From the IMG/VR virus record IMGVR_UViG_3300027672_001796: 64,000 nt of DNA; one strand, given 5' to 3'. The notes beneath the pieces are model-generated. The model worked only from the letters and a program-made list of their open reading frames with translations. It was not told where the DNA came from and did no database searches. Position 1 is the first letter of the stretch. Each line of letters starts with the position of its first letter. Positions 59,641-62,292 of this stretch are shown here, one piece after another. The position numbers and the translations under genes were made by a program. This DNA is from a virus (lineage: Duplodnaviria > Caudoviricetes).

Positions 59641-59669
59641 TTGACAAGTCGTTAAATAATTGCTATAAT
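59641..59669 (+). promoter_or_regulatory. Sigma70 consensus early promoter
   Basis: TTGACA-N17-TATAAT. Confidence 0.85.
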
Positions 59670-59676
59670 TAACGCT

Positions 59677-59877
59677 ATGAGACACATGATCAAGTGGTTG
59701 AAGATATCAGCTGGTATAAACATATACCTTAGCTTCATACTAACATTAGTATTAGTAGCACTTATGGTGGATATCGGTTTAGATAGTTATTGGCATGGCG
59801 CAGACTTCAAAAACAGTATTATAGAAGAACTGCACAAAGCACAGAATAATCAACTAGATGAAAACCACACAGGCTAA
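59677..59877 (+). CDS. Small membrane protein
   Basis: Hydrophobic segment IYLSFILTLVLVALMVDI. Follows the early promoter. Confidence 0.65.
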   Translation: MRHMIKWLKISAGINIYLSFILTLVLVALMVDIGLDSYWHGADFKNSIIEELHKAQNNQLDENHTG

Positions 59878-60196
59878 ACTCGCCACTGCGATTTCTAAAT
59901 ATAAGAAATCTACACAGTTATTACTCACGATTGTAGCAATTCCACATTTAGTTATAATCTCTTTGATGTTCCCTATGCTAACAGTAACCATTATGGCAAC
60001 ATTTATGCTGACTGGATTAATGTATGCTTGGTGTGAACTGATATACCAAATAGAAAATTCCCAAAGAAGTCAATTAATGTTCCTCATACAAACAACCACA
60101 AACGAACACACTAGACAAATACTGCGTATGGAACTTTGGGAAATTGAAAAACACAACGGACTTTCAGGCACGTTTGACCCATACCACATCATTTAA
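59858..60196 (+). CDS. Membrane protein (1-2 TM)
   Basis: Long hydrophobic stretch LLLTIVAIPHLVIISLMFPMLTVTIMATFMLTGLMYAW. Confidence 0.6.
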   Translation: MKTTQAKLATAISKYKKSTQLLLTIVAIPHLVIISLMFPMLTVTIMATFMLTGLMYAWCELIYQIENSQRSQLMFLIQTTTNEHTRQILRMELWEIEKHNGLSGTFDPYHII

Positions 60197-60199
60197 TTA

Positions 60200-60207
60200 G
60201 ATAAATA
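60200..60207 (+). promoter_or_regulatory. Late promoter GATAAATA
   Basis: Upstream of the 60259 lipoprotein (SD AAGGAG). Confidence 0.65.
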
Positions 60208-60258
60208 CTATATGTAATAATAGCAGATGGCTTTATTACCTTATATAAGGAGACGGAT

Positions 60259-60537
60259 ATGAATAATTTAGTATCTTTTTTCGGTTTAATTCTTTTATCA
60301 AGCATCGTAGGATGTGCCTCAGTTAGTGGCGCCTGGAATGCTGGTACAGAGATTGTCACAGGAACAGTTGACTCTGTTGTGGGCGGAGCCGCCACAATGG
60401 CAGTAGCGATTACTGATGATGTTCGAAACATTGCAGACGTAACTATTGACACAGCACAAGGTGTTGTTAAAACAGTTGCAGAAAATGTTGATAAACAAAC
60501 TGATGAATTACAAAAAGACAAAGAGCCGGGAAAGTAG
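60259..60537 (+). CDS. Lipoprotein (92 aa), amphipathic helical
   Basis: Lipobox IVGC and strong SD. The gene ends on G GGA AAG TAG. Confidence 0.8.
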   Translation: MNNLVSFFGLILLSSIVGCASVSGAWNAGTEIVTGTVDSVVGGAATMAVAITDDVRNIADVTIDTAQGVVKTVAENVDKQTDELQKDKEPGK

Positions 60538-60662
60538 GTAACTTTTCTCTTTTCAGAAAAGAAAAGGAAAAGCAACTCACAGCACAGGAATTAGTCTTAC
60601 TTTTCAAACAGAACCAAGAGAAGTTAGAAAAATACTGTACAACTAACCCAAAGGAATGTTAG
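60528..60662 (+). CDS. Start-less -1-frame extension of the lipoprotein (predicted frameshift, about 134-aa product)
   Basis: Slippery GGGAAAG at 60528-60534, 7-nt spacer, stem CTTTTCT/AGAAAAG. The -1 frame is open for 44 codons (GKVGNFSLFRKEKEKQLTAQELVLLFKQNQEKLEKYCTTNPKEC) with no ATG/GTG/TTG. Confidence 0.55.
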   Translation, partial: GKVGNFSLFRKEKEKQLTAQELVLLFKQNQEKLEKYCTTNPKEC

Positions 60663-60707
60663 CAATAATCGATAGATAGACGATTAGATGCGATAAATGT
60701 TAGCACT

Positions 60708-60732
60708 AAAGCACTCGCAAGAGTGCTTTTTT
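60708..60732 (+). terminator. Rho-independent terminator
   Basis: AAAGCACTC-GCAA-GAGTGCTTT followed by a T run. Confidence 0.9.
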
Positions 60733-60743
60733 GTTTTTTAAAC

Positions 60744-60840: not shown

Positions 60841-62292
60841 ATGAAGATAAGAATCTTATCAGCATTAGCCTTGATTGGGTTAATGACGACAACTGGTACA
60901 GTACAGGCCCAGGCCACCGGCACATGTACAGCAGGTACCCAGTATTGTGAAGCAAGTACATCGGATACTACAAGTACAACCACAACTACTGCGAATAATA
61001 CGAATACTTCGACGAACACGAATACTTCGACGAACACGAATACCAACGCGAATACGAACACGAATACCAACGCGAACACAAACACGAATACTTCGACGAA
61101 TACGAATAATTCGACGAATACGAATAATTCGACAAATACAAACACCAACGCGAATACGAACACGAACACCAACGCGAATACGAACACCAACACGAACACC
61201 AACGCGAATACGAACACGAACACGAATACCAATACCAACAATAATACCAACAATAATACCAACGCGAATACGAACACGAATAATTCGACCAATACTAACA
61301 ATTCGACCAACAGCAACACCAATAATAATACGTCGACAAATAATAACACCAACGCGAACACGAACACGAATAATAATACATCGACTAGTACCAACAACAA
61401 TGTGTCGAGTGGTGGAACAAATAACACCAATGCTAATACGAATAATAATACCAACACCAACAATAGCACTTCGAACAATACCAACACCAATAATAACACT
61501 AGTGATAGCACGGTAAACAGTACTTCGAATAACACTAATACGAACAATAGTAATATTGATCAGAACGTGAATTCAAATAGTACTAGTAACAATACCAACA
61601 CCAATAATAACAATAACAACTCGACCAGTGATAATACTAATAACAATAATAATACATCGACTAGTGACAGTAATGTAACAACTGACAACACGTCAGAAAG
61701 TAACAATACCAACACCAATAATAATACTAATAAAAACGAAAACATCAACAAGACTGACCAGACTATTAAGCAAGAGATAACAACTAAGGCTCCACCTGCT
61801 AGTGCTATTGCACCAAGCATTGGTTCTAGTTACTCACAAGACTTATGTACAACTGGTATATCAGGTGCTTTCCAAGGACAAGTATTTGGACTAAGTGGCG
61901 GTAAATCAGTTAGAGATATGAACTGTGAACGTATAAAGTTAAGTAAAACTATATACGATATGGGCATGAAGGTTGCGGCAGTTAGTTTAATGTGTCAAGA
62001 CGAACGTGTATTTACAGCGATGGAAATGGCTGGAACACCTTGTCCTTACATGGGAGCAATTGGCGATGCGGCTACTAAGCAATGGGCAGAGAATAGCGAT
62101 GAACGAGCAGATGCTAAACGTGGATGGTTCGGCAGAAAGAAAAACACAAGGTCATCGGCTAAAGTAGACTCGAATGTACTTAACACAGGCGAAGACTTTG
62201 ATAAGTTCATGAAAAAATGTCGTAAGAAAACAGGCAAAGGCAAGAAGAAAAGTTCGGGCCAATGTGAGGCAGAATGGGAATCAAACGCTTAA
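60841..62292 (+). CDS. Secreted protein with a long Asn/Thr low-complexity repeat and a Cys-containing C-terminal domain
   Basis: SD AAGGAG, signal peptide MKIRILSALALIGLMTTTGTVQA, about 250 aa of TNTNANTNTN/NSTNTN repeats, then APPASAIAPS...DLCTTG...NCERIKLSK...LMCQD...TPCP. Confidence 0.85.
   Translation: MKIRILSALALIGLMTTTGTVQAQATGTCTAGTQYCEASTSDTTSTTTTTANNTNTSTNTNTSTNTNTNANTNTNTNANTNTNTSTNTNNSTNTNNSTNTNTNANTNTNTNANTNTNTNTNANTNTNTNTNTNNNTNNNTNANTNTNNSTNTNNSTNSNTNNNTSTNNNTNANTNTNNNTSTSTNNNVSSGGTNNTNANTNNNTNTNNSTSNNTNTNNNTSDSTVNSTSNNTNTNNSNIDQNVNSNSTSNNTNTNNNNNNSTSDNTNNNNNTSTSDSNVTTDNTSESNNTNTNNNTNKNENINKTDQTIKQEITTKAPPASAIAPSIGSSYSQDLCTTGISGAFQGQVFGLSGGKSVRDMNCERIKLSKTIYDMGMKVAAVSLMCQDERVFTAMEMAGTPCPYMGAIGDAATKQWAENSDERADAKRGWFGRKKNTRSSAKVDSNVLNTGEDFDKFMKKCRKKTGKGKKKSSGQCEAEWESNA
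60985..61745 (+). repeat. Coding low-complexity repeat (AAC/AAT/ACG/ACC codons)
   Basis: Recurring ACCAACGCGAATACGAACACG and AATAATTCGAC units. Boundaries are approximate. Confidence 0.85.

What the first reader, a model, noticed from the sequence alone, without database searches (positions are those of the whole stretch)
60259..60732. Lambda-type G GGA AAG -1 frameshift at the end of a lipoprotein gene, giving two isoforms
Seen in sequence: the 92-aa lipoprotein ends CCG GGA AAG TAG, so the heptamer G GGA AAG (60528-60534) sits in the correct frame immediately before the stop. After a 7-nt spacer comes a CTTTTCT/AGAAAAG stem, within a CTTTTC x2 / GAAAAG x3 tract that could fold further. The -1 frame is closed just upstream (TGA at 60504), has no start codon, and stays open for 44 codons ending ...YCTTNPKEC. 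The terminator lies after this extension (60708), not after the 0-frame stop. Established knowledge: GGGAAAG is the lambda gpG/gpGT slippery site. Inference: a fixed ratio of short and long (about 134 aa, disulfide-tailed) envelope lipoproteins is made. I do not know of programmed frameshifting in a phage lipoprotein outside tail chaperones.
Basis: partly seen in the sequence, partly recalled or inferred. Interest (0 to 1): 0.72.

Follow-up and report, generated by a model that had tools for sequence, protein, structure and literature searches.

The report
Frameshift-extended lipoprotein of marine jumbo phages
A small outer-membrane-type lipoprotein gene of a widespread marine giant phage ends in a conserved "slippery" site and RNA hairpin, so some ribosomes most likely slip back one base and add a 42-residue disulfide-stapled helical tail; this appears to be a new, well-supported case of programmed frameshifting in an unusual kind of gene.

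Summary
The interpretation, a programmed -1 ribosomal frameshift (PRF) giving 92-aa and 134-aa isoforms, is strongly supported by comparison of homologues.

- **Slip site:** All 22 distinct homologues (51-98% identity, independent marine assemblies) keep an in-register X XXY YYZ heptamer 0 or 1 codon before the stop. It is GGGAAAG, AAAAAAG or CCCAAAA, with at least 5 switches on the tree.
- **Entry point:** In nine of the 22 variants a -1-frame TGA abuts the heptamer, so the tail frame can only be entered there. No start codon is conserved in it.
- **Tail frame:** It is the only one of six frames open in all 18 variants tested. It is under purifying selection and ends in an invariant Cys pair (YCxxNPxEC).
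- **Stimulator:** A hairpin 5-8 nt downstream persists through compensatory changes.
- **Transcript:** The terminator follows the tail. Metatranscriptome contigs cross the site without indels.
- **Other versions:** No in-frame fused homologue exists. More distant homologues (41% identity) lack both heptamer and tail.

The protein has no known family. It is a lipobox lipoprotein with five 11-residue amphipathic repeats, encoded in a conserved TM66-TM112-lipoprotein unit beside the phage's curli-like island.

Frameshift efficiency and function are untested. The scan noted this same stretch once more in an overlapping window, not on other DNA.

The parts
59641..59669 (+). Sigma-70-type promoter (TTGACA-17-TATAAT with TG, 12 of 12 matches) in front of the TM66-TM112-lipoprotein unit
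   Evidence: A similar TTGAC[AT]-N16-18-TAnAAT sequence lies upstream in 13 of the 18 variants examined, the window included. It is a consensus match only.
59677..59877 (+). TM66: 66-aa single-pass membrane protein, the most constant upstream partner of the lipoprotein gene
   Evidence: ORF. Synteny in 15 of 21 loci examined, including L033 where the curli genes are absent. No family found.
59858..60196 (+). TM112: 112-aa two-pass membrane protein, overlapping TM66 and preceding the lipoprotein gene
   Evidence: ORF. Conserved position, 27-42% identity in relatives. No family found.
60200..60207 (+). GATAAATA, a phage promoter-like motif (resembling the T4 late promoter TATAAATA) about 50 nt upstream of the lipoprotein start
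   Evidence: 12 copies in the window against 4.2 expected, with 0 of 100 shuffles reaching 12; most lie just upstream of a gene start on the same strand. Present upstream of the lipoprotein gene in nearly all homologues. RNA-library contigs of three runs begin at 60210-60235 (a weak hint).
60214..60239 (+). 5'-UTR hairpin (GUAAUAA...UUAUUAC) between the promoter motif and the ribosome-binding site
   Evidence: Fold. Homologues keep a hairpin here with different stem sequences (GTTATAA/TTATAAC, GTACGTTGCC/GGCAAGTAC) and a CAG(A/T)TGG-like loop (by eye). Not followed further.
60247..60252 (+). Shine-Dalgarno sequence AAGGAG, 6 nt before the ATG
   Evidence: Sequence. TAAGGAGA is conserved in homologues.
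60259..60537 (+). 0-frame lipoprotein ORF (92 aa). It has a signal peptide, lipobox IVGC (Cys19 at 60313-60315), five 11-residue amphipathic repeats (residues 30-84) and a variable K/E/P-rich linker
   Evidence: Cys19 is invariant in 28 homologues. Hydrophobic periodicity is 3.65 residues, reached by 2 of 2000 shuffles, and natural variants differ by one 11-residue insert. 89 homologous clusters, all viral or metagenomic and unnamed.
60528..60534 (+). Slippery heptamer G_GGA_AAG in the 0-frame register, directly followed by TAG
   Evidence: An in-register heptamer is kept in 22 of 22 distinct variants, with at least 5 changes of heptamer type on the tree.
60537..60577 (+). Predicted frameshift-stimulating hairpin. 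The core helix is 60542-60572 (12 bp, 7-nt spacer), with an optional 3-bp extension
   Evidence: Across 18 variants mean z is -2.4 (dinucleotide shuffles) and -2.9 (codon shuffles). Positions +8 to +12 are paired in 17 of 18 variants, with 2-4 pair types per position across +8 to +16.
60534..60662 (+). -1-frame tail ORF (42 codons plus TAG) with no start codon. It encodes a linker, an amphipathic helix and a C-terminal Cys35-x6-Cys42 loop (YCTTNPKEC)
   Evidence: It is the only frame of six open in all 18 variants. Pooled pN/pS is 0.49 (0.12-0.31 in unsaturated pairs) against 0.88 and 1.44 in the other frames. Both Cys are invariant. The AF2 model has a helix at 17-37 with pLDDT about 94.
60708..60739 (+). 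Intrinsic terminator after the tail ORF
   Evidence: GC hairpin plus T-run at the equivalent place in most homologues.

Best explanation
The lipoprotein mRNA carries a classical bacterial-type programmed -1 ribosomal frameshift cassette at its very end.

Most ribosomes decode ...Pro-Gly-Lys and terminate at TAG, which gives a 92-aa prolipoprotein (73 aa mature).

A fraction of ribosomes are paused by the hairpin 7 nt downstream. Their tRNAs slip back one base on G_GGA_AAG, so that GGA/AAG are re-read as GGG/AAA. They then read GTA GGT AAC... and add 42 residues before stopping at 60660.

Both products share the signal peptide, the lipid-modified Cys and an 11-mer-repeat amphipathic helical domain. 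Only the long one (134 aa) carries a flexible linker, a second amphipathic helix and a Cys-x6-Cys loop that would be oxidised in the periplasm.

Shown by sequence and comparison: the heptamer, its register, the hairpin, the coding constraint on the -1 frame, the lack of any other way into that frame, and the transcript extent.

Inferred: that slippage actually occurs, its efficiency, the disulfide, outer-membrane sorting (Ala at +2), and the biological reason. The most likely reason is a fixed minority of tail-bearing subunits among tail-less ones on or under the host outer membrane during infection.
For: 1. In-register X_XXY_YYZ heptamers occur in 22 of 22 distinct variants from IMG/VR, JGI and ENA assemblies: GGGAAAG in 10, AAAAAAG in 11 and CCCAAAA in 1. 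They lie 0 or 1 codon before the stop. The type changed at least 5 times on a tree built without those columns.
2. In nine variants a -1-frame TGA directly precedes the heptamer. No ATG, GTG or TTG is conserved in the tail, and six variants have none.
3. The tail frame is open in 18 of 18 variants, against 0-8 of 18 for the other five frames. The substitution pattern is that of coding sequence in this frame only. The two Cys are invariant, and Pro39 and Glu41 nearly so.
4. The window uses rare codons that create the heptamer: CCG is 14% of Pro codons, GGA 28% of Gly and AAG 29% of Lys.
5. A hairpin starts 5-8 nt downstream in 16-17 of 18 variants. It is more stable than shuffles and has UA/CG/GC alternatives at the same stem positions.
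6. The terminator lies after the tail. In L011, L020 and L039 the next gene's ATG overlaps the tail's stop as TAATG.
7. Contigs from RNA libraries of two studies span 60230-60640 and 60493-60692 with 0 differences and 0 gaps, so the bulk RNA is collinear with the DNA.
8. One natural variant (P0096 on L035) has the tail module in frame behind its own start codon and signal peptide. This suggests the module is a translated, exported unit.
Against: There is no direct evidence: no proteomic, reporter or ribosome-profiling data, and no cultured host.

Two closely related variants (L002, L005) have only a weak hairpin (z about -0.1 to -0.3), and L026 uses CCCAAAA, which as I recall is a poorer slip site in E. 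coli.

No upstream Shine-Dalgarno-like stimulator is conserved (by eye).

The RNA-library contigs cannot exclude DNA carry-over or rare slipped transcripts.

The hairpin's 5' arm also encodes a conserved FSLF-like peptide, so RNA and peptide constraints are partly confounded.
Confidence: 0.88

Rival explanations
1. The tail is a separate small gene. It would be translated on its own by non-canonical initiation or by termination-reinitiation at the lipoprotein stop, not by frameshifting.
For: The tail module can exist behind its own start and signal peptide in one 1-kb contig (L035). Gene callers called short internal-start fragments of it in some relatives (P0092, P0094).
Against: No start codon is conserved, and six variants have none at all. 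A tail without a signal peptide would stay in the cytoplasm, which makes the invariant Cys pair hard to explain. This rival also does not explain why an in-register slippery heptamer is kept through at least 5 sequence switches, nor why the tail alignment begins directly at the heptamer in all lineages (V-S/T-x-F...).
Confidence: 0.04
2. The long isoform is made by transcriptional slippage: RNA polymerase drops or adds a base in the A or G run, rather than the ribosome slipping.
For: Eleven variants have runs of 6-7 A at the site, which could support low-level polymerase slippage.
Against: Ten variants have only GGGAAAG (three G plus three A), which as far as I know is too short for polymerase slippage, yet they keep the same architecture. 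What is conserved is the codon register of the heptamer and a hairpin at ribosomal-pausing distance, neither of which transcriptional slippage needs. RNA-library contigs show no indel at the site, although contigs hide rare variants.
Confidence: 0.04
3. The region after the stop is a conserved 3'-UTR or RNA element, or a decaying remnant of a once longer gene, and no tail is made.
For: The region contains a conserved hairpin, and the 0-frame gene is complete without it. More distant homologues (41% identity) lack the tail altogether.
Against: Third-codon-position variation, low dN/dS and invariant Cys codons are specific to one frame. That frame is open for 36-59 codons in every variant despite AT-rich sequence, where stops are frequent. 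A remnant would not be maintained across lineages down to 51% identity.
Confidence: 0.03

Closest known systems
E. coli dnaX tau/gamma and IS911/IS3-type -1 frameshift cassettes (A_AAA_AAG plus a downstream stem-loop)
   Same: A tandem-slippage heptamer ending in the Lys codon AAG, with a simple hairpin about 5-8 nt downstream. Two products share an N-terminal part. AAAAAAG itself is used by half of the homologues.
   Different: No conserved upstream Shine-Dalgarno-like stimulator was seen. In dnaX the shifted product is the shorter one, and in IS elements the shift fuses two long ORFs. Here the slip site abuts the 0-frame stop and the shift adds a short C-terminal module to an exported lipoprotein.
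Phage lambda G/GT and other tail assembly chaperone frameshifts (G_GGA_AAG)
   Same: The window has the identical heptamer. The logic is also shared: a minor C-terminally extended isoform with the same N-terminal domain, conserved across phages by position rather than by sequence.
   Different: This is not a tail chaperone. It has a lipoprotein signal peptide, no Pfam or PHROG chaperone match, and is not located between the tail tube and tape measure genes. The extension is 42 aa, not a whole domain of about 140 aa, and here a hairpin is conserved.
T7 gene 10A/10B and Lactobacillus phage A2 major head protein (-1 frameshift near the stop adding a short C-terminal extension)
   Same: The frameshift lies at the very end of the ORF and produces a minor, extended version of an abundant protein. 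The A2 case is cited in PMC10885494.
   Different: Those are cytoplasmic virion proteins that co-assemble into capsids. This is an exported, lipid-anchored envelope protein of unknown partner.
Curli-like (type VIII secretion) gene cluster of marine myophages (Zaragoza-Solas et al. 2020, PMC7029224)
   Same: The window carries csgF, csgG, curlin-repeat and FecR-like genes immediately upstream. The lipoprotein unit follows them in most relatives.
   Different: That paper mentions neither a lipoprotein nor recoding. The lipoprotein unit also occurs without the curli genes (L033), so it may be functionally independent.
CP12 C-terminal disulfide loop (Pfam PF02672)
   Same: There is a local motif likeness, LE-YC-x2-NP-...-EC after a helix.
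   Different: The match is far below threshold (E 0.08, 14 bits against 22.7). The loop is Cys-x6-Cys. CP12 is not an exported protein, whereas this tail follows a lipoprotein signal peptide. I treat this as a chance or convergent resemblance.

Membership tests
Programmed -1 ribosomal frameshift cassette (bacterial/phage type) | X_XXY_YYZ slippery heptamer in the 0-frame register | tested here: met
   G_GGA_AAG at 60528-60534. In-register heptamers in 22 of 22 distinct homologues.
Programmed -1 ribosomal frameshift cassette (bacterial/phage type) | -1 ORF that has no initiation signal of its own and is conserved as coding sequence | tested here: met
   No conserved start codon. A TGA abuts the heptamer in 9 variants. 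Only this frame is open in all variants. Frame-specific purifying selection.
Programmed -1 ribosomal frameshift cassette (bacterial/phage type) | Stimulatory RNA structure 5-9 nt downstream of the heptamer | tested here: met
   Predicted hairpins with 5-8 nt spacers, mean z -2.4 and -2.9, and compensatory pair changes. They are weak in L002 and L005. A MAFFT/RNAalifold consensus failed because loop lengths differ.
Programmed -1 ribosomal frameshift cassette (bacterial/phage type) | Trans-frame protein actually produced at a defined efficiency | not testable with these tools
   This needs a reporter assay, proteomics or ribosome profiling.
Phage tail assembly chaperone G/GT | Gene pair between the major tail/tube gene and the tape measure gene, with homology to chaperone families | tested here: not met
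   Neighbours are small membrane proteins, curlin-like genes and secreted repeat proteins. No Pfam or PHROG hit.
Bacterial lipoprotein (Lgt/LspA substrate) | N-terminal signal peptide ending in a lipobox [LVI][ASTVI][GAS]C | tested here: met
   MNNLVSFFGLILLSSIVG|C. Cys19 is invariant and the lipobox variants ITSC, IVGC, VTSC and AQGC occur in 28 homologues. This was judged by rule, not by a dedicated predictor.
Braun lipoprotein (Lpp)-like coiled-coil lipoprotein | Sequence homology to Lpp, or heptad (3.5-residue) coiled-coil periodicity | tested here: not met
   No family or PDB match. The periodicity peak is 3.65 (11-mer repeats), not 3.5.
Spanin (o-spanin of a two-component spanin) | Outer-membrane lipoprotein gene next to, or embedded in, an i-spanin gene that has a long periplasmic coiled coil | tested here: inconclusive
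   The adjacent TM66 has only about 35 residues beyond its membrane segment, and TM112 is mostly membrane. No PHROG spanin hit. No lysis genes were identified nearby.
CP12 (PF02672) | Score above the Pfam gathering threshold | tested here: not met
   14.1 bits against 22.7, over 16 residues only.

The most novel reading that the evidence does not exclude
The frameshift sets the stoichiometry of a mixed, lipid-anchored assembly in the infected cell's envelope. Most subunits would be bare 11-mer-repeat amphipathic helices lying on or under the outer membrane. A fixed minority would carry a disulfide-stapled helix that docks a periplasmic or inner-membrane partner: TM66/TM112, the neighbouring secreted proteins that bear the same YCxxNPxxC motif in some relatives, or the phage curli-like channel. 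That would move the G/GT 'adaptor in fixed ratio' logic from virion assembly to remodelling of the host envelope, and it would make the recoding site a junction where lipoprotein heads and tails are exchanged between phages.
Probability: 0.2. Interest if true: 0.75.

Novelty: new member of a known kind. Interest (0 to 1): 0.6.

Why it matters
Outside tail chaperones, capsid proteins, transposases and dnaX, very few bacterial or phage -1 frameshifts are supported by deep comparative evidence. I found no report of one in an exported lipoprotein in the literature I could search.

This case has three interchangeable heptamers, a covarying hairpin, a -1-frame stop that pins the entry point, and a tail-less outgroup. 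That makes it a clean natural experiment for what a bacterial frameshift cassette needs.

It also shows that gene callers miss part of the proteome of abundant marine jumbo phages. All 89 database clusters hold only the short form.

Finally, it flags a conserved three-gene envelope module beside the still unexplained phage curli cluster as a target for experiments.

Tried and rejected
- **Genome and phage searches:** blastn against the phage collection found nothing.
- **Family searches:** Pfam, PHROGs, NCBIfam and a PDB sequence-profile search found no family for the lipoprotein, the tail, TM66 or TM112. The Atlas gave only unnamed viral clusters at scores of 0.96-0.97 and sub-threshold leads (DUF6726, Gly-zipper). 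The Atlas search on P0095 was uninformative.
- **RNA consensus:** RNAalifold on the MAFFT alignment of the hairpin region gave no consensus because loop lengths differ. I used per-sequence folds anchored on the heptamer instead.
- **Structure of the long isoform:** A mixed alignment of the fused window protein with head-only and tail-only rows misaligned the tails and was not used. I therefore folded head and tail separately.
- **Head model:** It is low confidence (pLDDT 53, one long helix), so no fold search was made.
- **Complex prediction:** A job on three copies of the mature head returned no verdict (score 0.01). I count it neither for nor against self-association.
- **Rejected readings:**
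  - A heptad, Lpp-like coiled coil: no signal at period 3.5.
  - ATAAATACT as a general promoter word: only 2 copies. The shorter GATAAATA is enriched.
  - Stop-codon readthrough: the conserved peptide is in the -1 frame, not the 0 frame.
  - An antisense gene (ORF 60189-60575 on the minus strand): reverse frames carry stops in most variants.

Full report
**What is in the sequence**

The 92-codon ORF 60259-60537 begins with a typical lipoprotein signal peptide (MNNLVSFFGLILLSSIVG|C) and ends CCG GGA AAG TAG. G_GGA_AAG (60528-60534) is therefore in the X_XXY_YYZ register and directly abuts the stop.

The -1 frame is closed by TGA at 60504. From 60534 it reads VGNFSLFRKEKEKQLTAQELVLLFKQNQEKLEKYCTTNPKEC and stops at 60660-60662. 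A 12-bp hairpin (CUUUUC.CUUUUC / GAAAAGGAAAAG) starts 7 nt after the heptamer, at -12.6 kcal/mol and z = -2.1. The only terminator-like element lies at 60708-60739, after the tail.

**Where the window comes from**

The record is viral. The window encodes the following:
- baseplate, tail-fibre and SbcCD-like proteins;
- a fibre protein with Mtd_N and BppL_N domains;
- CsgF, CsgG, a curlin-repeat protein and a FecR-domain protein immediately upstream of the finding.

Such curli-like clusters are known from marine myophages (PMC7029224). Homologues of the lipoprotein sit on contigs of up to 337,867 bp. The exact DNA is held by at least 13 marine metagenome runs from many studies.

**Comparative test of the frameshift**

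A scan of IMG/VR gave 29 related loci at 51-98% protein identity. Look-ups of database proteins added five more relevant loci from JGI and ENA assemblies. They reduce to 22 distinct variants.

All 22 have an in-register X_XXY_YYZ heptamer at the end of the gene:
- G_GGA_AAG in 10 variants;
- A_AAA_AAG in 11 variants, six of them with the heptamer one codon before the stop (cca aaa aag gaY TAA);
- C_CCA_AAA in 1 variant.

A tree was built from the head-coding DNA with the heptamer and 21 nt before it left out. On it the heptamer type changes at least five times. The sequence is therefore free to change but the slippery property is not.

In nine variants the -1 frame has TGA immediately 5' of the heptamer (ccTGAGGGAAAG, ccTGAAAAAAAG). 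A ribosome can then enter the tail frame only at those two codons. No ATG, GTG or TTG is conserved in the tail frame, and six variants have none at all.

In the window the heptamer is built from minority codons. CCG is 14% of Pro codons, GGA 28% of Gly and AAG 29% of Lys, so the joint expectation is about 1%. In 17,706 codon positions of 24 other genes of the window, in-register G_GGA_AAG occurs 0 times and A_AAA_AAG twice.

**The tail is coding**

Across 18 variants the tail frame has no stop in any of them. The other five frames are open in 0, 0, 1, 8 and 0 variants.

Third codon positions vary most. Pooled pN/pS is 0.49 in the tail frame against 0.88 and 1.44 when the same alignment is read in the other two frames. 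Unsaturated pairs give dN/dS of 0.12-0.31.

The peptide alignment starts right at the heptamer (V-S/T-x-F-S-L-F). It ends in an invariant Cys pair within (Y/F)CxxNPxEC.

In L011, L020 and L039 the ATG of the next gene overlaps the tail's stop codon as TAATG. This is the arrangement typical of translationally coupled ORFs.

**The stimulator**

Folding the 52-60 nt after the heptamer gives a hairpin starting 5-8 nt downstream in 16-17 of 18 variants, at -8 to -20 kcal/mol.

Mean z-scores are -2.4 against dinucleotide shuffles and -2.9 against shuffles of the tail's own codons. L002 and L005 are the exceptions.

Anchored on the heptamer, positions +8 to +12 are paired in 17 of 18 variants, with 2-4 pair types per position across +8 to +16. 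Examples are CCUUUUCUC/GAGAAAAGG against CCUGUUCUC/GAGAAACAGG, and GUUUUUCG/CGAAGAAC. The peptide encoded by the 3' arm is poorly conserved while pairing is kept, which argues for selection on the RNA.

A MAFFT/RNAalifold consensus could not be obtained because loop lengths differ. A structure-aware covariation test is still to be done.

**Absence of alternatives**

Among 89 homologous protein clusters in a 5.8-billion-protein collection, none covers more than the 92-aa part of the joined query. No in-frame fused gene exists.

More distant homologues (41% identity; P0088 and P0089 on L030-L032) have no heptamer and no tail, and are followed after 11 nt by the next gene. They form a natural outgroup.

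Contigs from RNA libraries of two studies cross the site (60230-60640, 60493-60692 and a related-strain contig 60210-60651) with no indel. They stop before the terminator. This fits a short lipoprotein-plus-tail mRNA collinear with the DNA and argues against slippage by RNA polymerase as the main route. Contigs cannot exclude rare variants or DNA carry-over.

Half of the variants have only three G plus three A at the site, which also argues against polymerase slippage.

**What the protein is**

No family was found in Pfam, PHROGs, NCBIfam or PDB sequences. Atlas neighbours are unnamed viral clusters.

The mature head (residues 30-84) shows a hydrophobic periodicity of 3.65 residues, close to 11/3, and only 2 of 2000 shuffles reach the observed power. 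It can be written as five 11-residue units, and natural variants differ by an insert of exactly 11 residues. AF2 models it as one long helix at low confidence.

Such 11-mer amphipathic repeats are typical of lipid-surface-binding helices and of hendecad bundles. That statement rests on established knowledge, and which of the two applies here is unknown.

The linker before the slip site is variable and rich in K, E and P. The tail is modelled with a disordered first 16 residues, a confident helix at 17-37 (pLDDT about 94) and a short turn that brings Cys42 back towards Cys35.

A profile of the tail searched against 1.84 billion representatives gave three kinds of hit:
- fragments of the same ORF;
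- a 52-aa protein (P0096, L035) in which the tail module follows its own start codon and signal peptide;
- a 144-aa secreted bacterial protein (P0095) with three tandem copies of the helix-plus-YCxxNPxEC unit.

In some relatives the downstream secreted protein also carries YYCDNNPEIC near its mature N-terminus. A weak CP12 likeness (E 0.08) is below threshold and biologically implausible for an exported protein.

**Operon context**

Several features define the unit:
- A perfect sigma-70-type promoter (59641-59669) precedes TM66, TM112 and the lipoprotein gene, and the terminator follows the tail.
- The order TM66-(TM112)-lipoprotein is kept in the relatives whose flanks are available. L033 keeps it even though the curli genes are missing.
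- The lipoprotein gene also has its own GATAAATA motif about 50 nt upstream. This word is enriched (12 found, 4.2 expected) and mostly lies just upstream of gene starts in the window, like a T4-type late promoter.
- A 5'-UTR hairpin follows the motif and varies in sequence but not in shape among relatives.

**Mechanism and rivals**

The best-supported mechanism is classical tandem -1 slippage on the heptamer, stimulated by the hairpin. The adjacent stop codon may add to this, since a slow A-site event favours P-site slippage; that is established knowledge and untested here. The result would be a major 92-aa and a minor 134-aa lipoprotein.

Independent initiation, transcriptional slippage and a non-coding remnant are each contradicted by several observations above. 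Together I give them about 0.1.

What remains unknown is the efficiency, the isoform ratio and the function. My favoured functional reading is a minority of tail-bearing subunits among tail-less ones in the host envelope, with the tail acting as a docking module. It is inference by analogy with G/GT, T7 10A/10B and dnaX. A complex-prediction job on head self-association gave no verdict.

**Comparison with known systems and novelty**

The cassette meets all sequence-level criteria of a bacterial or phage -1 PRF site. It is not a tail chaperone.

The literature I could search lists phage frameshifts in tail chaperones, capsid proteins, lysins, methyltransferases, polymerases and transposases, but none in a lipoprotein. 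I therefore class it as a new member of a known kind.

It is a well-supported new recoding case in an unusual gene class and in an abundant, uncultured phage group. It is interesting for recoding biology and phage annotation but not a new mechanism.

Noticed in passing
window 60214-60239 (and the equivalent place in L001-L033): A conserved 5'-UTR hairpin lies between the GATAAATA motif and the ribosome-binding site of the lipoprotein gene. Stem sequences differ among relatives (GTAATAA/TTATTAC, GTTATAA/TTATAAC, GTACGTTGCC/GGCAAGTAC) around a CAG(A/T)TGG-like loop. It may be a regulatory or stabilising RNA element.
   Followed up: partly
window 17210, 23535, 28310, 34450, 34499, 38610, 45327, 50674, 54536, 60200, 60744: GATAAATA occurs 12 times against 4.2 expected. 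Most copies sit just upstream of a gene start on the matching strand, which makes it a likely phage (T4-late-like) promoter core.
   Followed up: partly
window 59641-59669: A perfect sigma-70 consensus promoter (TTGACA-17-TATAAT with an extended TG) sits in front of TM66. A similar sequence is present in 13 of the 18 variants examined, the window included. The small membrane-protein unit may therefore also be read by unmodified host RNA polymerase early in infection.
   Followed up: partly
L021 vs L033, tree: Lipoprotein heads that are sister sequences (98% SH-aLRT) carry different tail types and different heptamers. L021 has the short 'DIKALVKSIMIYC' type with GGGAAAG, and L033 has the long 'ELVKLF..LEKYC' type with AAAAAAG. 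This suggests recombination at or near the recoding site.
   Followed up: no
L011 3393-3860, L020 3390-3908, L035 200-670: In some relatives the gene after the tail encodes a secreted protein of about 155-172 aa with the same YYCD(N/S)NP(E/P)(I/E)C motif near its mature N-terminus. In L011 and L020 its ATG overlaps the tail's stop as TAATG (L035 has a 3-nt gap instead).
   Followed up: partly
P0095 (metagenomic bacterial protein, 144 aa): This secreted protein is built of three tandem helix-plus-(Y/F)CxxNPxxCE units. It appears to be an unnamed repeat family that shares the tail's motif.
   Followed up: partly
window 60841-62292: A 483-aa secreted protein has about 250 residues of near-pure Asn/Thr/Ser repeats (NTNTNANTNT...) and a conserved Cys-rich C-terminal domain (phrog_20531). 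A homologue also lies near the tail-less lipoprotein relatives (L030).
   Followed up: no
L038 1978-3288: In one relative the gene directly after the lipoprotein-plus-tail unit encodes a CHASE2 and guanylate/adenylate cyclase protein.
   Followed up: no
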